A stretch of 64,000 bases of DNA from a virus (lineage: Duplodnaviria > Caudoviricetes). Of the stretch, positions 10,543-50,342 are shown in pieces. Each line of letters opens with the position of its first letter. Positions within the stretch are counted from its first letter, which is position 1. The stretch spans positions 1,224 through 65,223 of the IMG/VR virus record IMGVR_UViG_3300036835_000480. The stretch is one strand, 5' to 3'. The position numbers and the translations under genes were made by a program. The notes beneath the pieces were generated by a model that saw nothing but the letters and a program-made list of their open reading frames with translations, ran no database searches and was not told where the DNA came from.

Positions 10543-10631
10543 GGCCAGCCGCCTTTCACGACCGCGACCAGATAGACCGCCACCAGCAGGCACACGATAA
10601 GCTCCAGGATGGCCAGCAGGTCAATCAGCAC
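10530..10631 (-). CDS. small single-TM membrane protein
   Basis: LIDLLAILELIVCLLVAVYLVAVV hydrophobic stretch. Confidence 0.45.
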   Translation of the reverse strand: MLIDLLAILELIVCLLVAVYLVAVVKGGWPWIE

Positions 10632-10649
10632 GGGGCACTCCGACGATTC

Positions 10650-10746
10650 TGGCGTGATTGCGCCAGTTTTGGCTATAATTGGGCACGCCAAATGCCCGCG
10701 TGCCGCTAGGGACGGCCGCGGGCGTAGCACCGAAGGAGATGCTTCG
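10650..10746 (+). promoter_or_regulatory. endonuclease-cassette palindrome/-10 plus leader hairpin
   Basis: TGGCGTgattGCGCCA-8-TATAAT; hairpin 10693-10724. Confidence 0.75.
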
Positions 10747-11817
10747 ATGCCTCGTCAGGCTAGCACACGCCAGCCCCCGGTGACGCTTTCGTGCGCCCAG
10801 TGCGGCACGCCGTTTTGGCGTCACGTCTCGGAGGTCCGCAAGAACCCACCAGGGAGCCCCGCCTACTGCTCGCGGGCTTGCTGGCGCCGCGCCATACACG
10901 CCCAGCCCCAGGTCACCTGTACCTGTGAGCACTGCGGCGTGACATTCCAGCGCTGGGCCGCCATCGTCGAGAGTGGCCGAGGCCGCTTCTGTAGCCGGGC
11001 CTGCACCAACGATGGCCGTGATTCGCGGATTGCGCTGACGTGTGAACAGTGTGGTATTACGGTCTACCGCTGGCCCGCCGAACTGCGCCGCTCCCGCGCA
11101 TCCCAACATACCTACTGCTCGCGGGCCTGCGCTACCGAGGCCAAGCGCTCGTCGCTCCCTCGCATGGCCGTGTATGCCATCGTCCATCTGGCGAGTGGCC
11201 GGCTCTACATCGGGGCCACCACGCACCTCGTGCGCCGCTGGGGCAGCCACCGCTGGAAACTCGGCAACGGGTCGCACGAGAACCCCGTCCTGCAAGCGGC
11301 CTGGACGCGCGAAGGTGCCACCGCATTCGAGTTTCGCGTGTTGGAGACGGTGAGTGATCCAACCCAGTTGCCGGTCCGGGAACAAGCGTGGCTGGACGGC
11401 TCCCATAGTGCCGAGCCGGCACAGGGCTTTAATATCCACCCCCAAGCGGAGAGCCCGCGCGGGCGCAAACAGCGACCCGAGGTCATCGCTCGGATGGCCG
11501 AGCGACAGCGAGGGCGCCCCCACTCGGCCGCGACGCGGGCACGTATATCGGCGAGCGCGATGGGGAACCAGCGCGGCGTCGCGACCTTGAGACGGTATAC
11601 CGCACAGGCCCGTGCCTTGTCGGATACGCAAGTGGCCGCGATTAAACAGGCTCTCGCCGCTGGCGACTACGTCGCCGCCATCGCCAGACGGGCAGGGATC
11701 GCGACGTATGCAGTTGAACATATCGCCAGAGGGGACACCTATCGCCATGTCTTGCCCGAATTGGATGCGGCCCTGCGGCAGCGGGCCGATGGGCGCAAGC
11801 GCCGGCGGGGCTCTTAG
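10747..11817 (+). CDS. free-standing GIY-YIG homing endonuclease with zinc repeats and NUMOD3-like motifs
   Basis: AVYAIVHLASGRLYIGAT...RWGSH...HENPVLQAAW...REQAWLD...GFN; HSAATRARIS. Confidence 0.88.
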   Translation: MPRQASTRQPPVTLSCAQCGTPFWRHVSEVRKNPPGSPAYCSRACWRRAIHAQPQVTCTCEHCGVTFQRWAAIVESGRGRFCSRACTNDGRDSRIALTCEQCGITVYRWPAELRRSRASQHTYCSRACATEAKRSSLPRMAVYAIVHLASGRLYIGATTHLVRRWGSHRWKLGNGSHENPVLQAAWTREGATAFEFRVLETVSDPTQLPVREQAWLDGSHSAEPAQGFNIHPQAESPRGRKQRPEVIARMAERQRGRPHSAATRARISASAMGNQRGVATLRRYTAQARALSDTQVAAIKQALAAGDYVAAIARRAGIATYAVEHIARGDTYRHVLPELDAALRQRADGRKRRRGS

Positions 11818-11828
11818 AGCCAGGCCGT

Positions 11829-12359
11829 TCATGCCTCCACCGCCTCTCCCGCAGGGATAATGTCAATGGAACATTGACAATTTCCTAGTCAGGTTCTAGA
11901 GCCCACTTCGGGCAGAGTCCCCACCGGGACGGGGCCGCGATCGGTTAACTCCTGACATTCATCGCAGCTAGCCGCCGATTCACTCAAGACGTTCTGCTCC
12001 ATCGCATCTTCCGGAGCATCTCTGCGGATCACACCGCTATAGGTACCGCGAACCGCACCGCCGTACATGCTCAATCTTTGCATCGCCTGGGGCCCAAAAT
12101 CGCCTGGCGCCGTATCTAAACCTAGTACACTCAAATACGAGTACTGCTGTCTAAGCCGACTCCCCACAAACCCCCGCGTCGAGGCATCCATCTGGTCCCA
12201 GCCGCCCCTGGCCAGCGCCGCCGACGTGACGTGCGCATTCTTGAGGGTTTGTTGAACCCCGAGCCGCCAGGAAAGCGTGTCGAGCCCCTCCGCGCGCCGC
12301 TGGCCCCAGACGGCGAGCTCGGCTTTTGTGGCCGCTACCAGGTCGTCGAGGTTACTCAC
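11829..12359 (-). CDS. minor capsid/head morphogenesis (MuF-like) protein with an in-frame TGA at 11889-11891
   Basis: CDEC...LPEVGSRT[TGA]LGNCQCSIDII; frame continues 19 codons past the TGA; located after the portal gene. Confidence 0.7.
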
Positions 12360-12592
12360 GCCCCGCCTCCGAACTCGGCGCGCAGCGCCGCGGGGTCGAG
12401 GTCGAGCGCCGCGCAGGTGCGGCCGATGGCCCCCTGCGCGCGGACCAGGAAGGCGCGCTGCTCGGGCGCCAGCTCGGTCGCCACGCTGAGCACCAGCGCG
12501 CAGTAGCTCTGCGTGGCGATCAGCAGCGTCACCAGGTCGTAGACCGTGCTAAGCACGGCCACCGTCTGGGCCTCTTGTTCGAGCTGCCCCAT
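12356..12592 (-). CDS. hypothetical protein
   Basis: GTGA overlap with the minor capsid gene. Confidence 0.6.
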   Translation of the reverse strand: MGQLEQEAQTVAVLSTVYDLVTLLIATQSYCALVLSVATELAPEQRAFLVRAQGAIGRTCAALDLDPAALRAEFGGGA

Positions 12593-13003
12593 AGAACGTG
12601 CGGCAGGGGACTGTCGCCTTCAGGCGACAGAGGAATGCCGTCAGCCCGCAGGCTGAGCGCGTCCTCGTCCCCGCCTCACTCCTTCCGTTTATTGGCGTCG
12701 TTACGCCAAATCTCGTATACTACTAGGAGTCGGCTCTCCCTTGCGGACGGCGCCTCCGGGATGCCTCCAACCGCGTAAACGGTGACCCGACATGACCGGG
12801 GTAGCATGGCGAGCCGTGAGGCTCCCGGCGGGCAATCAGCGTACTGCCGTCCGCCCCGGCCGGGCTGCCCTAGGCCCTCGGGCCTAGCTCTCTCGCTAAG
12901 AGCATCACCCAGCCCAACGTAGGGGAGCGGGTGTCGCGAGTCCGGTGTCACGGGTCGAACGCTCCACTTACAAGCCGTTCGCCTTTAGGCGACGGTCGGT
13001 GAT
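12593..13003 (+). mobile_element. non-autonomous, ORF-less IS200/IS605-type element (411 bp)
   Basis: left hairpin CTGTCGCC-TTCA-GGCGACAG; right end CAAGCCGTTCGCCTTTAGGCGACGGTCGGTGAT; removal restores a TGATG stop/start overlap. Confidence 0.8.
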
Positions 13004-13023
13004 CAGCGCACCTGCCAGTTATC
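12726..13023 (+). ncRNA. candidate TnpB omegaRNA-like structured RNA with flank-derived guide
   Basis: downstream of TATACT (12716-12721); several hairpins (GAGCC-GTGA-GGCTC, CTAGGCC-CTCG-GGCCTAG); ends in the IS605 right-end hairpin. Confidence 0.5.
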
Positions 13024-13194
13024 CAGCCGCGGGTTCGGTCGCGGTGCGGGTACGGGCGGGCGCGCTGCGTTCCAGATGGTCGCGCGCGCGATCGCCTTGT
13101 AGGTCACCGCGTAGCCGTTGCCCGTGCCCCCGGCCTTCCCGCTCAGGCGCCAGGCCCAATCGGGGAGATCCCGCCGCGGCGTGCGGGCGCTCAT
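13003..13194 (-). CDS. hypothetical protein
   Basis: TGATG overlap with the upstream ORF. Confidence 0.55.
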   Translation of the reverse strand: MSARTPRRDLPDWAWRLSGKAGGTGNGYAVTYKAIARATIWNAARPPVPAPRPNPRLDNWQVR

Positions 13195-13403
13195 CAGCAC
13201 TGCCGCTGGTACCGCTGCGCCCACTCCCCCGCGAGCGTCAGCAGTCGCGCGAGATAGGGGCTCGCCAGCCACTCGGTCGGCTCGTCGTTGCCCGCTGCCC
13301 GCCGCGCGGCCCACTCGCGTTCGGTCGCCAGGAGCAAGGCCGACTGGAGCGGCTCCGGGTACCGCTCGATCGGCACGCCCCAAACGGACGCCAGGTCACT
13401 CAC
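13194..13403 (-). CDS. hypothetical protein
   Basis: overlaps the portal stop codon. Confidence 0.55.
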   Translation of the reverse strand: MSDLASVWGVPIERYPEPLQSALLLATEREWAARRAAGNDEPTEWLASPYLARLLTLAGEWAQRYQRQC

Positions 13404-14958
13404 GGTGCCGCCCGTTCGCGTGCCCGTTGCGCCGCGCCTTGCCGCTCCCGGCCAGCGCCGCCTCTAGGTCGGGCAGGCCCAACCCCGCGACCCACTCCTG
13501 GGCGCGGGCGATATCCGCAGCGGTGATCCGCACCGGCGGCGGCTCGGCCTTCACCAGCACCTCCCAGCCGCTCGCGGCCTGGAGCGCCGAGGGCTCTAGC
13601 TCGGGGATCGTGTCGCTCGCGCCCGGCTCGGGCGTGGCGGCCGGCGCCGCGGGCTCCTCCGCGGGCACGGGCTCCGGGGCCGGCGGCGGCTGGAGCTGAT
13701 CGGACGGCAGGGCCACGACGGCGACGGGAACGAACAGCACGTCGCCGTCACTGAGCGCCGGCCGCCCGAGGTCGGCGCGCGCCTCATTCACCGTCAAGAA
13801 TGGGCCGCCCACCGCTTCTTTGAGCCGCGCGTATTTCTGCGTCTCGTCCTCGGCGAAGGCGCGCAGGTCGGAGAGGTCGCGAGCGATGCGGATCGTCGGG
13901 TCGTCGGTGAAGTCGGGCAGGAGCTGCGCCTGCAGCTTGGCGTCGTCCTGCGCCCAGAGCCCGACCAGGGTGGCCTCGGTGAAGTACTCGCGCGCCTGGC
14001 GGGCGTTGGCGTAGGTCGCCGCGTCGAGGCCGGCGCCCAGGCCGGCGATGATCGCGGGCACGCGCAAGACGGCGCTGATCCTTTCCTCTGGCACAGAATG
14101 GATGTCACGCAGGAGCATCTGCTCGGGCGAGAAGCCGACCTGGGCCATCGTGGCGTCGCCGCCGATCACGCCGACCCGCCCGCGGCGCTCCTCGCTGTAG
14201 AGCCACTGCGCCGTCTCGGCGAGCTGGCGCGCCTGCTGCTCGGTCAGCGCGTTCTTAGTCGTGATCATCATCCCCGGCAGGGCGTAGTTGCCGAGCAGGG
14301 TATCCGTCCAGCGCGCGGCCCGCTCGTCGGTGGTCACGGCGCGGACCAGGCGCGCCAGCGGCGAGAGGCCGCGGCGGGGGTCGCGGTCGTCGAGGCCGAG
14401 GCGGAAGTGGATCACGTCGCGCGGGTCGAGGTCCTCGAACTGGCCCGAGGCGTAGAACCAGCGGTAGTAGCTGATGAAGTCATTGCCGGTGCTGAAAATC
14501 TGGACCCGCGTCGGGCTCATCGGCCAGAGGCGCACGACCGCGCCGCGCTTCGACGTGCGCTCCTTGCGGACGAAAGCATTGCCGTCAAGGTGGTAGGCCC
14601 AGGTCGCCCAGCCCCATAGCTCCAGCGCGGTGATAAACGGGTTGGGGTTGTCGAGCAGGAGCTGGCAGGGATGGTCGGGCAGCCATGCGCGCTCCTCGTC
14701 GGCGTCGATCTGCCACACCTTGAGCGGCGGCTCGCAGTAGGAGGTGCCGAGCGCGGCCAGGCAGGCGAAGACGGCGCTATTGCCGTCGCCATAGGCCACC
14801 GCGCCGGCGGCCGGCACCGCGGCGGCGCTGCCGCCGTAGGGCGCGAGCCCGTCGGGGTAGACGGGCAGCAGGTCGAGCGCCGCCTTCTGCGCGGGCGCGG
14901 GCGCCGCGGCGCGGGCCAGGAGCGGCGGGCCGAAGCGCAGCCAGTTAGGCACGGGCAC
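13396..14958 (-). CDS. portal protein, HK97 family
   Basis: NSAVFAC, LLDNPNPF, LDGNAF, VIHFR...GLSPL, ATYANA, LTVNEARADLG. Confidence 0.95.
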   Translation of the reverse strand: MPVPNWLRFGPPLLARAAAPAPAQKAALDLLPVYPDGLAPYGGSAAAVPAAGAVAYGDGNSAVFACLAALGTSYCEPPLKVWQIDADEERAWLPDHPCQLLLDNPNPFITALELWGWATWAYHLDGNAFVRKERTSKRGAVVRLWPMSPTRVQIFSTGNDFISYYRWFYASGQFEDLDPRDVIHFRLGLDDRDPRRGLSPLARLVRAVTTDERAARWTDTLLGNYALPGMMITTKNALTEQQARQLAETAQWLYSEERRGRVGVIGGDATMAQVGFSPEQMLLRDIHSVPEERISAVLRVPAIIAGLGAGLDAATYANARQAREYFTEATLVGLWAQDDAKLQAQLLPDFTDDPTIRIARDLSDLRAFAEDETQKYARLKEAVGGPFLTVNEARADLGRPALSDGDVLFVPVAVVALPSDQLQPPPAPEPVPAEEPAAPAATPEPGASDTIPELEPSALQAASGWEVLVKAEPPPVRITAADIARAQEWVAGLGLPDLEAALAGSGKARRNGHANGRHRE

Positions 14959-49648: not shown

Positions 49649-49748
49649 TCCCGTCTGGACGCCGAATTCGGGTATACTGTAAATACCTGAATAGCCCCGC
49701 GGCGCTAGAGACGCCCGGGGCCGCGGCACCCCAACGTTGGAGGTTAGG
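49649..49748 (+). promoter_or_regulatory. endonuclease-cassette (partial) palindrome/-10 plus leader hairpin
   Basis: TCCCGTctggACGCCG-8-TATACT; hairpin 49694-49721. Confidence 0.68.
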
Positions 49749-50342
49749 ATGCTTCCGCAGTCTACCACGCCCCATCATTGCGCGGTCCCCACCTGCACGC
49801 GCGCGCCTCGTGGCGGTCGCCAGTATTGCTCCTTGCATTACGGTCGGCTGCGAGCCGGCCGCCCCCTCGACGCGCCGGTACGGGCCTGGTCGCATACGAA
49901 AGTCCCTTGCCTCGTGGCGGGCTGCGCTACTCCCGGTCGCATCAATGGGTTGTGTCCGACTCACGCCAGTCGCCAGTGGCGTGGGGCCCCCTTGGAAGGA
50001 CCGATCCAACAAAAGCTGCGTGGCACGTTGGAGGAACGGATTGCGGCCTACTCGCATCGCGAGCCATCTGGTTGCTGGATCTGGGATGGCACACTGAACG
50101 AGCATGGCTACGGCGTCATCGGATACCGTGGGCGGATGCGGCGCGTCCACCGCATTACCTACCGCCTCGCTTATGGCGACGATGCGTTGCCTGAGGGCTG
50201 GCATATCGATCATTTTGTCTGCCGTACGCCTCGCTGTATCGAGCCCGAACACCTACGTGCACTCCCACAGAGCGGTCATAGCCGGCATCATTACGGTGAA
50301 CGCCTGATCGGTCCCGACGGTCGACTCCTGCCTAAGACTTAA
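49749..50342 (+). CDS. free-standing HNH homing endonuclease
   Basis: two C..P.C...C..H repeats; GCWIWDG...GYG...VHR..Y...IDHFVCRTPRCIEPEHL. Confidence 0.88.
   Translation: MLPQSTTPHHCAVPTCTRAPRGGRQYCSLHYGRLRAGRPLDAPVRAWSHTKVPCLVAGCATPGRINGLCPTHASRQWRGAPLEGPIQQKLRGTLEERIAAYSHREPSGCWIWDGTLNEHGYGVIGYRGRMRRVHRITYRLAYGDDALPEGWHIDHFVCRTPRCIEPEHLRALPQSGHSRHHYGERLIGPDGRLLPKT

What the first reader, a model, noticed from the sequence alone, without database searches (positions are those of the whole stretch)
12593..13023. ORF-less IS200/IS605 mini-element that may express a stand-alone TnpB guide RNA
Seen: 411 bp bounded by IS605-like subterminal hairpins. Deleting it joins CCCCAT to CAGCGCA, restoring a TGATG stop/start overlap between two late genes, with no clear target duplication (only a 2-bp AT ambiguity). 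It holds its own palindrome/-10 promoter, about 170 nt of extra hairpin-rich sequence, and a 3' part resembling TnpB omegaRNA ends. No tnpA or tnpB occurs in the window. Established: TnpB guides derive from the right-end flank and target the empty site next to the TAM. Inference: the RNA (guide about CAGCGCACCTGCCAGTTATC, TAM about CCAT) could borrow a host TnpB to cut element-free sibling phages.
Basis: partly seen in the sequence, partly recalled or inferred. Interest (0 to 1): 0.78.

Follow-up and report, generated by a model that had tools for sequence, protein, structure and literature searches.

The report
Gene-less IS605 guide-RNA mini-transposon in phage
A 411-base, protein-less miniature of an IS200/IS605 jumping gene sits between two head-module genes of a soil phage, keeps the transposon ends, a promoter and a diverged copy of the guide-RNA scaffold used by TnpB nucleases, and turns up in soil RNA libraries; it is a further example of an already described kind of element, not a new kind.

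Summary
Window 12593-13003 is a single-copy, ORF-less IS200/IS605 mini-element, with its top strand on the + strand. It lies right after a CCAT. Removing it in silico restores a TGATG stop/start overlap.

Its left end is 46/51 identical to that of a tnpA+tnpB element in another viral contig, and 41/42 identical to that of a tnpB-only element in a Deinococcus MAG. Its right end belongs to that tnpB-only subtype. CCAT precedes 63 of 67 distinct left ends of the family.

BLAST and MAFFT saw nothing in the interior. A covariance model built from 22 tnpB-3'/right-end stretches of the subtype, without the window, matches 12840-13003 over its full length at 37.2 bits. It recovers three helices, two with large loop inserts. 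Without the right-end hairpin this support is weak (4.6 bits).

The only sigma-70-like promoter in the 1 kb scanned lies at 12692-12721 (+). Contigs from three soil RNA libraries cover 12672/12739/12761 onwards, and one bridges the right end by 149 nt. Their strand is unknown.

The 65-kb record holds no tnpA or tnpB. No empty allele was found. Use of a TnpB in trans is inferred.

This is a new member of a known kind: PATE-like elements that carry omegaRNAs. The scan has noted similar phage minis on other DNA.

The parts
12589..12592 (+). Target tetranucleotide CCAT, the putative TAM. On the minus strand it is the ATG+G start of the 78-aa gene.
   Evidence: CCAT precedes 63 of 67 distinct left ends of the family (3 have TCAT, 1 has none). 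Sequence read.
12593..12641 (+). Left end (LE). It consists of an outer stem GCGGCA/TGCCGT (12600-12605 / 12636-12641), an internal loop GGGGAC/GAGGAA, and the hairpin 12611-12630.
   Evidence: 46/51 identical to L003, a tnpA+tnpB element. 41/42 identical to L010. 81% over 54 nt to the Skermanella tnpB element. The outer stem changes on both sides among relatives (sequences).
12642..12691 (+). Spacer between LE and promoter. It includes a CCTCACTCCTTCC box that resembles the CCTCCTTTC box found after the LE in relatives.
   Evidence: Seen by eye against the LE-proximal sequences printed. Not tested statistically.
12692..12721 (+). Sigma-70-like promoter TTGGCG-18-TATACT. The -35 hexamer lies inside the palindrome 12692-12709.
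   Evidence: It is the only promoter-like site in 12300-13300; shuffles give a mean of 0.1. Relatives carry a promoter-like TTGACA/TATAMT pair at the same place, between the LE and the first gene. An RNA-library contig starts at 12739.
12728..12839 (+). Unique 5' domain of the predicted RNA, with no relative found. A 9-bp long-range helix pairs 12743-12751 with 12846-12854.
   Evidence: No blastn match with E<0.1 in 75 loci. No match in phages, and no match of this part in plasmids. Inverted repeat I11. Covered by RNA-library contigs.
12840..13003 (+). OmegaRNA-like scaffold that ends at the right end (RE).
- H1: 12863-12867 / 12910-12914, with a 40-nt loop insert.
- Linker CAAC: 12915-12918.
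- H2: 12919-12929 / 12960-12971.
- H3, the RE hairpin: 12975-12983 / 12988-12995.
- Tail TCGGTGAT, ending at 13003.
   Evidence: Model R1, built from 22 relatives without the window, scores 37.2 bits (E 1.7e-10) over model positions 1-124 of 124. nhmmer profiles match 12905-13002 at E 2e-6 to 5e-6. The H1-4nt-H2 descriptor occurs in 180 of 20,000 shuffles. Caveats: the RE alone scores 15.0 bits and H1+H2 alone 4.6 bits.
13004..13019 (+). Putative guide: the flank directly 3' of the RE. It is antisense to the last codons of the 63-aa gene.
   Evidence: Assigned by position only, from the established TnpB rule that the guide is the flank after the RE (Meers et al. preprint, passages read). The exact 16-mer occurs once in the window. 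The X7 RNA-library contig runs through it.
13003..13194 (-). Upstream phage gene, 63 aa. Its TGA stop uses the last base of the element.
   Evidence: GC3 0.88; TGATG overlap with the 69-aa gene at 13194-13403.
12356..12592 (-). Downstream phage gene, 78 aa. Its ATG abuts the LE, and its former upstream context now lies 411 bp away.
   Evidence: GC3 0.94. In-silico excision restores the TGATG overlap.

Best explanation
Window 12593-13003 is a non-autonomous, protein-less IS200/IS605-family element (PATE-like). It inserted 3' of a CCAT at the junction of two overlapping head-module genes of a soil phage, antisense to those genes.

What it keeps:
- the left end;
- a sigma-70-like promoter at the position where relatives carry the promoter for tnpA/tnpB;
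- a unique stretch of about 110 nt;
- a diverged copy of the three-helix RNA scaffold that overlaps the 3' end of tnpB and the right end in one subtype of the family.

Proposed working:
1. Transcription from about 12728 gives an RNA of about 290 nt or more that runs through the right end into the flank.
2. In a cell that supplies a compatible TnpB, from the host or from a co-resident element, this RNA would act as an omegaRNA. Its guide (13004 onward) would match the empty site CCAT|CAGCGCACC...
3. Phage genomes that lack or have lost the element would be cut and repaired from an occupied copy. This is homing or retention.
4. Transposition itself would need a TnpA in trans.

Shown here: family membership of both ends, the target site, absence of genes, moderate scaffold similarity, the promoter-like site, and presence in RNA libraries across the right end.

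Inferred: RNA strand and ends, TnpB binding, cleavage and homing.
For: Ends and target:
- LE and RE match tnpB- and tnpA+tnpB-bearing elements.
- CCAT precedes 63 of 67 distinct left ends.
- The RE boundary aligns with the tnpB-only subtype.
- Excision restores TGATG.

Scaffold:
- The relatives' consensus has 21 predicted pairs, 19 of them with compensatory changes.
- Model R1 hits only 12840-13003(+) in 64 kb, at 37.2 bits over its full length. The next best hit scores 5.2 bits.
- This is higher than all 17 elements of other subtypes tested (best 29.7 bits) and lower than 3 held-out close members (83-84 bits).
- Sequence-only profiles reach back to 12905, at E 2e-6.
- The descriptor occurs in 180 of 20,000 shuffles.

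Precedent within the family: minis L069 (about 333 bp) and L052 (about 400 bp) keep 61-65 nt of the tnpB-3' region plus the RE.

Expression:
- Promoter-like site.
- RNA-library contigs X7 12739-13152 (bridges the RE by 149 nt), X8 12761-13016 and X9 12672-13016, all with 0 mismatches.
- In X7 the contig's word depth is 25.5, against 2.8 for the contig at 12455-12682. The tool warns that contig depth is a poor measure of expression.

Literature: PATEs 'often encode omegaRNAs' to be acted on in trans (Meers et al. preprint PMC10055086, passages read).
Against: - The interior is not alignable to relatives by BLAST or MAFFT.
- Without the RE hairpin the scaffold scores only 4.6 bits (E 0.028 in 274 nt). 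With two base pairs of H2 cut off it is not reported at all. H1 and H2 need inserts of 40 and 25 nt.
- The shuffle descriptor was written after the window had been seen.
- Folding is not unusual: z -1.6 on the + strand and -1.2 on the - strand.
- No Rfam match. Rfam also has no match to the relatives, so this counts for little.
- No tnpB or tnpA in the 65-kb record, which is estimated 75% complete. No host is known.
- The element is single copy.
- No empty allele was seen in 4 runs (no joints) or in related phages.
- The RNA evidence comes from assembled contigs only. The strand and the ends are unknown, and DNA carry-over is possible.
- The last base of the RE is T, where all 22 aligned relatives have C.
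Confidence: 0.6

Rival explanations
1. The element is an inert relic. It is a decayed PATE whose scaffold no longer works. The RNA is an incidental transcript from a leftover promoter, or read-through, with no role for the element or the phage.
For: - H1 and H2 carry large inserts, and the scaffold scores far below close family members: 37 bits against 83-84.
- H1+H2 alone score 4.6 bits.
- The terminal RE base differs from all 22 relatives.
- The element is single copy.
- No tnpA or tnpB in the record.
- No empty allele found.
Against: - The LE is 41/42 identical to that of an intact tnpB element.
- Helices H1-H3 are still pairable at the consensus spacing.
- The promoter is intact.
- RNA-library contigs in three runs cover exactly the promoter-to-RE part.
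Confidence: 0.22
2. The RNA seen in the libraries is minus-strand phage message: the 63-aa gene and its downstream read-through. On this reading the + strand promoter and scaffold are not expressed, and the element is simply tolerated inside a late operon.
For: - RNA-library contigs also cover 13057-13199 and 13004-13152, that is the 63-aa gene.
- Contigs carry no strand information.
- X9's contig starts at 12672, upstream of the + strand promoter.
Against: - No promoter-like site on the minus strand in 12300-13300.
- The highest-depth contig starts at 12739, 18 nt after the + strand -10 hexamer.
Confidence: 0.12
3. The RNA serves the phage in some other way. It could be an antisense regulator of the 63-aa gene, or a decoy that occupies a host TnpB-family protein. 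The transposon ends would only be the vehicle that brought it in.
For: - A unique 110-nt 5' domain and loop inserts with no counterpart in relatives.
- Read-through would be antisense to the whole 63-aa gene.
- The promoter's TATACT hexamer is one of only 7 in the window, and 3 others head HNH cassettes.
Against: - No conservation data for the unique part: no relative was found anywhere.
- TATACT is also a common -10 hexamer in the IS family itself.
Confidence: 0.06

Closest known systems
PATE-like minimal IS200/IS605 elements of Geobacillus stearothermophilus (Meers et al. 2023 preprint, PMC10055086; passages read)
   Same: Both lack protein genes and share their LE and RE with tnpA- and tnpB-bearing elements. 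They are said to 'often encode omegaRNAs' that must be used in trans by a TnpB encoded elsewhere.
   Different: - This element sits in a phage genome, in a record with no tnpB.
- It is single copy.
- Its scaffold is strongly diverged, with loop inserts, and it has a unique 110-nt 5' domain.
- The target site is CCAT.
- Contigs from RNA libraries are the only evidence of expression.
tnpB-only element of a Deinococcus MAG (L010/L077) and its relatives L061, L050, L039
   Same: - LE 41/42 identical.
- Same RE subtype, ACAAGC-hairpin-GGTCG(T/G)TGA(C/T).
- Same target, CCAT.
- Three-helix RE-proximal structure.
   Different: Those elements carry a 395-aa TnpB that overlaps the scaffold. The window element has no tnpB remnant, and its scaffold region cannot be aligned to theirs by sequence upstream of about 12905.
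IS605-type tnpA+tnpB element in viral contig L003 (IMGVR_UViG_3300047160_026798)
   Same: It is the closest LE including the junction (46/51). The RE hairpin is 25/26 identical. It also lies in a viral contig, and it shows that a TnpA partner exists for this hairpin type.
   Different: It is about 1.7 kb long with tnpA and a tnpB that carries an in-frame TAA. Its interior is unrelated to the window element.
Mini-elements L069 and L052 of the same IS family
   Same: They are about 333 and about 400 bp long with the layout LE - promoter-like box - unique part - tnpB-3'-like part - RE.
   Different: They belong to the other RE subtype (GAGAAGCC...GTCAC). Their 3' 61-65 nt are still found by BLAST against autonomous elements (75-84% identity). 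No expression data were examined.
ISDra2 TnpB-omegaRNA
   Same: The layout is the same: the scaffold ends at the RE, the guide is the flank, and the TAM equals the transposon's target site.
   Different: The TAM (TTGAT, recalled) and the ends differ. In ISDra2 the omegaRNA overlaps an intact tnpB in cis.

Membership tests
IS200/IS605 non-autonomous element (PATE-like) | Subterminal hairpins at both ends in the same orientation, with no terminal inverted repeats | tested here: met
   Hairpins at 12611-12630 and 12975-12995 on the same strand. A 15-nt direct repeat is shared between the ends.
IS200/IS605 non-autonomous element (PATE-like) | Ends homologous to those of elements that carry tnpA and/or tnpB | tested here: met
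   Matches to L002 (tnpB), L003 (tnpA+tnpB) and L010 (tnpB), plus many of the 73 further LE-bearing loci.
IS200/IS605 non-autonomous element (PATE-like) | Insertion 3' of a fixed short target, without target-site duplication | tested here: met
   CCAT at 12589-12592. CCAT precedes 63 of 67 distinct family left ends. There is no duplication, and excision restores TGATG.
IS200/IS605 non-autonomous element (PATE-like) | No protein-coding gene inside | tested here: met
   Internal ORFs lack the GC3 bias of this genome's genes: 0.57-0.72 against 0.88-0.94. There is no TnpA or TnpB similarity.
IS200/IS605 non-autonomous element (PATE-like) | Evidence of mobility: several copies, or an empty site in relatives | tested here: not met
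   One copy in the record. No joints in 4 runs. No close phage relative found.
TnpB omegaRNA (reRNA) | The scaffold ends exactly at the RE boundary and is followed by flank sequence that serves as guide | tested here: met
   The model match ends at 13003, which is the RE boundary.
TnpB omegaRNA (reRNA) | Scaffold homologous in sequence and structure to the tnpB-3'/RE region of related tnpB elements | tested here: inconclusive
   37.2 bits over the full model. nhmmer E 2e-6 back to 12905. Descriptor in 180 of 20,000 shuffles. However, H1+H2 alone score only 4.6 bits, and close members score 83-84 bits.
TnpB omegaRNA (reRNA) | Transcribed on the top strand through the RE | tested here: inconclusive
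   Contigs from three runs' RNA libraries cover the region, and one bridges the RE. The strand is not given, and DNA carry-over is not excluded.
TnpB omegaRNA (reRNA) | A cognate TnpB is available in the same genome or cell | tested here: not met
   No PF07282 match in the 65,223-bp record, estimated 75% complete. The host is unknown. An RE-like RNA contig of another element occurs in run X7; this shows only that relatives live in that soil.
TnpB omegaRNA (reRNA) | Binds TnpB and directs TAM-dependent DNA cleavage | not testable with these tools
   Needs a bench assay.
Any Rfam family (including HEARO, group I introns and ribozymes) | Match at the family's gathering score | tested here: not met
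   0 matches at gathering score in the window. The best match in 12400-13200 has E 0.66, below gathering. Rfam also does not match the tnpB relatives.

The most novel reading that the evidence does not exclude
A phage carries a guide-only selfish element. It encodes neither transposase nor nuclease. It is transcribed from its own promoter into an enlarged omegaRNA with an extra 5' domain and expanded loops, and this RNA commandeers a TnpB encoded by the host. The nuclease then destroys or converts co-infecting sibling phages that lack the insertion at the CCAT start-codon junction. In effect this would be an RNA-only gene drive, or a weapon between phages. The non-consensus terminal T, which also supplies the stop codon of the upstream phage gene, may have fixed the element in place.
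Probability: 0.2. Interest if true: 0.75.

Novelty: new member of a known kind. Interest (0 to 1): 0.45.

Why it matters
If the RNA really programs a TnpB in trans, a phage can carry just the 'address label' of an RNA-guided homing system and borrow the nuclease from the cell it infects. That would bear on how TnpB/omegaRNA modules spread, and on how phages compete.

Practically, the element provides:
- a naturally enlarged scaffold variant;
- a defined 4-nt target (CCAT) for a large, Cas12f-like TnpB clade. One search found 2388 proteins with E<=1e-30 among the 8000 candidates scored, and one search found that the closest solved structures are Cas12f-type.

As it stands, this is an ordinary if tidy example of a PATE with an omegaRNA-like part. 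Its unusual features are its presence in RNA-library contigs and the absence of any tnpB in the record.

Tried and rejected
Known RNA families. Rfam gave nothing at gathering score in the whole window. At E<=10 in 12400-13200 there were four sub-threshold chance hits. No tRNA or tmRNA. A group I intron/IStron reading was considered and dropped: no Rfam signal on either strand, and the element's top strand is antisense to the phage genes.

A protein-coding cargo was rejected on GC3.

BLAST of the element.
- Phages: no match.
- Plasmids: only the LE matched, in Skermanella.
- Interior against 75 fetched loci: nothing with E<0.1.
- Exact interior and RE words in viral contigs: 0 hits each.

MAFFT with four relatives aligned only the last 45 nt or so. 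On that basis I first thought the cargo unrelated to any omegaRNA, and revised this.

Controls on the model.
- With the RE removed and H2 clipped, only the LE hairpin scored, at 9.5 bits.
- With H2 complete, H1+H2 scored 4.6 bits.
- A second alignment without the RE (A3) mis-aligned H2, so no model was built from it.

Search for an empty site.
- A portal search in viral contigs found no close relative.
- A profile search gave 80 loci at 41-49% identity. Only 1 of them holds a homologue of the 156-aa gene, and none holds the 63-, 69- or 78-aa genes.
- No joints in runs X6-X9.

Viral relatives of the L010 TnpB: none.

Host prediction from portal homologues gave no organism names. An identical portal is on record on a 130-kb contig, which I could not fetch.

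Read-laying details that may only be told here.
- In X7 and X8 no contig lay on 13207-13800 (portal, 69-aa gene).
- X8 and X9 contigs both stop at 13016. The DNA run X6 also stops at 13020, so this is not counted as a 3' end.

The idea that the terminal T of the RE is a post-insertion mutation is weakened by L003, whose RE may also end in ...GAT. It is kept only in the novel case.

The idea that the promoter is of a phage-specific class rests on 3 sites sharing ACGCC-N8-10-TATACT and is not established. TATACT is also frequent in the IS family's own promoters.

Supplementary files of papers were not opened. The extended data of Meers et al. on PATEs could bear on how typical this layout is.
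Full report
Setting. The window is bases 1224-65223 of a 65,223-bp IMG/VR virus record with 70% G+C, classed linear and estimated 75% complete. The finding lies in the head module, which is read on the minus strand.
- Portal gene, 13396-14958 (PF04860, E 5e-51).
- A 69-aa gene, 13194-13403.
- A 63-aa gene, 13003-13194.
- The 411-bp interval.
- A 78-aa gene, 12356-12592.
- A 156-aa gene, 11889-12359.

The 126-aa ORF that a mechanical ORF list gives upstream of the interval is not a gene. Its distal half has GC3 0.57. The 63-aa frame has GC3 0.88 and starts in a TGATG overlap with the 69-aa gene.

The observation. The interval carries two similar hairpins in the same orientation: 12611-12630 (CTGTCGCC-TTCA-GGCGACAG) and 12975-12995. 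Joining 12592 to 13004 in silico gives CGC-TGATG-GGG on the minus strand. That is the same stop/start overlap used one gene upstream. There is no target duplication. The interval occurs once in the record.

A six-frame search of the whole record with the TnpB (PF07282) and Y1 transposase (PF01797) families found nothing at E<=1, while the control genomes responded. tblastn with two TnpB proteins found nothing better than E 0.24. Internal ORFs lack the genome's GC3 bias.

Family of the ends. BLAST against plasmids hit only the left 53 nt, in a Skermanella mucosa plasmid. There the match is followed by a 383-aa protein with HTH_OrfB_IS605, OrfB_IS605 and Cas12f1-like_TNB domains, and then by a right-end hairpin like the window's.

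A 30-nt degenerate left-end pattern was then used to scan three collections.
- Viral contigs: one further hit, L003.
- Genome collection: 28 stretches, from Actinomycetota, Alphaproteobacteria, Chloroflexota, Deinococcus and Pyrinomonas.
- Metagenome contigs: 45 stretches, using the window's exact hairpin type.

L003 is a full element with tnpA (132 aa) and a tnpB interrupted by one in-frame TAA. Its left end, including the CCAT junction, is 46/51 identical to the window's, and its right-end hairpin is 25/26 identical. L010, from a Deinococcus MAG, is a 1285-bp tnpB-only element whose left end is 41/42 identical. Many other loci carry tnpA+tnpB or tnpB next to the left end.

Of 76 left-end instances, 7 were duplicates and 2 were too short. 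Of the remaining 67, 63 follow CCAT, 3 follow TCAT and 1 follows neither. The family's target, and hence the expected TAM, is CCAT. The window has CCAT at 12589-12592, which on the other strand is the ATG+G of the 78-aa gene.

Right ends fall into two subtypes.
- GAGAAGCC-hairpin-GGAGnnGTCAC, as in Skermanella and most tnpA-bearing elements.
- ACAAGC-hairpin-GGTCGTTGAC, as in L010, L061, L050 and L039.

The window's ACAAGCC-hairpin-GGTCGGTGAT belongs to the second subtype. Its last base is T where all 22 aligned relatives have C. That T supplies the A of the upstream gene's TGA.

The interior. BLAST with short words and MAFFT found no similarity between 12641-12975 and any of 75 fetched loci, nor with phage or plasmid collections. 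For a while this suggested an unrelated cargo.

I then collected relatives of the L010-type TnpB. That family is large: one search found 2388 proteins with E<=1e-30 among the 8000 candidates scored. Loci therefore came from five genomes reached through my loci, and from 7 of 401 sampled genomes of one phylum.

The last 125 nt of 22 such elements give an RNAalifold consensus of three helices.
- H1: GGCUG...CAGCC.
- A 4-nt linker.
- H2: begins GU and ends AC directly before AAGC.
- H3: the right-end hairpin.

Of the 21 predicted pairs, 19 show compensatory changes.

A covariance model of this alignment, which does not contain the window, finds one significant match in the 64-kb window: 12840-13003 on the + strand. 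It scores 37.2 bits (E about 1.7e-10) and covers model positions 1-124 of 124, with inserts of 40 nt in the H1 loop and 25 nt in the H2 loop. The next hit scores 5.2 bits.

Calibration of that score:
- Three held-out close members score 83-84 bits.
- Seventeen elements of other subtypes score at most 29.7 bits, most of them only 10-19 bits on the hairpin alone.
- The window's right-end hairpin alone gives 15.0 bits.
- H1+H2 alone give 4.6 bits.
- With two H2 pairs clipped, H1+H2 are not reported.
- Sequence-only profiles of the same alignments match 12905-13002 at E 2e-6 to 5e-6. That is about 65 nt beyond the hairpin.
- A consensus-derived descriptor (G-GGNNN...NNNCC, 4 nt, GU-helix closing on AC) occurs in 180 of 20,000 dinucleotide shuffles. 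It was written after the window had been seen.

I read this as real but diverged homology to the tnpB-3'/right-end RNA region of the subtype. It is not proof of a working scaffold.

Two other protein-less minis of the same IS family also keep 61-65 nt of their relatives' tnpB-3' region plus the right end: L069 at about 333 bp and L052 at about 400 bp. Retention of this part in minis is therefore recurrent. The 110 nt from 12728 to 12839 have no counterpart anywhere I searched.

Expression. The only sigma-70-like site in 12300-13300 on either strand is TTGGCG-18-TATACT at 12692-12721(+). It lies where relatives have a promoter-like pair between the left end and the first gene.

The stretch occurs in soil metagenome runs and in soil metatranscriptome runs. 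Four runs, all held as assembled contigs, were laid on 11800-13800.
- X7 (RNA): a 414-nt contig covers 12739-13152 with 0 mismatches and bridges the right end by 149 nt. Its word depth is 25.5, against 2.8 for a contig at 12455-12682.
- X8 (RNA): a contig covers 12761-13016.
- X9 (RNA): a contig covers 12672-13016.
- X6 (DNA): a contig bridges the left junction of the occupied allele.
- No joint that skips the element was seen in any of the four runs.

Contigs give no strand, no ends and no reliable level, and DNA can be present in RNA libraries. The three studies may also be one campaign. This is therefore consistent with, but does not show, a + strand RNA from about 12728 through the right end. 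X7 also holds contigs of other elements with a near-identical left-end hairpin (1 mismatch) and right-end core (2 mismatches in 33 nt), flanked by unlike sequence. Relatives of the same subtype are thus present in that soil's RNA library.

Mechanism. The established model is that TnpB uses an RNA whose scaffold ends at the right end and whose guide is the flank. It cuts the empty site next to the TAM, so that the element is restored by recombination. PATEs 'often encode omegaRNAs' that need a TnpB in trans (Meers et al. preprint PMC10055086, passages read).

Applied here, an RNA from this element would target CCAT|CAGCGCACCTGCCAGT. That is the junction as it would look in a phage genome without the element. 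The occupied allele has GTGAT instead of CCAT before the match and would be spared. The exact 16-mer occurs once in the window. The steps from RNA to cleavage are inferred. No TnpB partner, host or empty allele was found.

Comparison and novelty. The element passes the structural tests for a non-autonomous IS200/IS605 element: ends, target, no duplication, no genes. It fails only the mobility test, being single copy with no empty site found. For 'omegaRNA' it meets the positional criterion. The homology and transcription criteria are inconclusive, and no cognate tnpB lies in the record.

Literature searches gave only the Sternberg-lab preprints, a 2026 review and older IS surveys. Searches returned listings, and one search returned passages of PMC13565253. 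In what I read, none describes phage-borne omegaRNA-only minis.

Earlier notes of this scan report several such minis in other phages and file them as PATE-like. I therefore rate this as a new member of a known kind. It is of moderate interest because of the RNA-library contigs, the absence of any tnpB in the record, and the enlarged scaffold.

Noticed in passing
window 10609-11817 (+): A 402-aa ORF with HNH and GIY-YIG/NUMOD3 homing-endonuclease signatures (phrog_1271 at E 2e-21; PF01541). It lies antisense inside the head module, about 800 bp from the mini-element.
   Followed up: partly
window 2328(-), 12716(+), 26562(-), 49673(+): Only 7 TATACT hexamers occur in the 64-kb window. Four of them sit at the head of selfish cassettes: three HNH_3 endonuclease ORFs (1366-2283-, 25745-26608-, 49737-50342+) and the mini-element. 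Three share ACGCC 8-10 nt upstream. This may be a common promoter class, but TATACT is also a frequent -10 hexamer in the IS family itself.
   Followed up: partly
window 13003-13403 (-): The longest ORF here (126 aa, TTG start) is an artefact. The GC3 profile and a TGATG overlap indicate two small genes of 69 aa (13194-13403) and 63 aa (13003-13194).
   Followed up: yes
L003:5612-7293 (IMGVR_UViG_3300047160_026798): Another viral contig carries a full IS605-type element. Its tnpA is intact and its tnpB has a single in-frame TAA. It is inserted among repeated GCGTCAC-type words that look like iterons.
   Followed up: partly
L069:about 820-1152 and L052:about 1260-1660 (metagenome contigs): Two further protein-less minis of the same IS family, about 333 and about 400 bp long. 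Each has the layout LE, promoter-like box, unique middle, and 61-65 nt of the tnpB-3' region plus the RE of the other RE subtype.
   Followed up: partly
LE of all fetched loci; window 12600-12641: The LE hairpin sits in a conserved internal loop (GGGGAC / GAGGAA). This is closed by an outer stem that changes on both sides between elements (CCGGCT/AGCCGG, GCGGC/GCCGC, GTGGCA/TGCCAC and others). It looks like covariation in a DNA structure presumably read by TnpA.
   Followed up: no
run X7, contigs laid at 12606-12636 and 12970-13002: The same soil RNA library holds contigs of other IS copies with a near-identical LE hairpin and RE core but different flanks. Elements of this subtype are present, and perhaps expressed, in that community.
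   Followed up: no
P0121: A portal protein identical to the window's is on record on 5 contigs, the longest of 130,221 bp. A fuller genome of this phage, or a prophage context, probably exists.
   Followed up: no
L010/L077 TnpB (395 aa): The TnpB clade tied to the window's RE subtype is closest, among solved structures, to Cas12f-type proteins (8j3r at E 1e-27). It is very abundant in metagenomes, and the few source names given are mostly Chloroflexota.
   Followed up: partly
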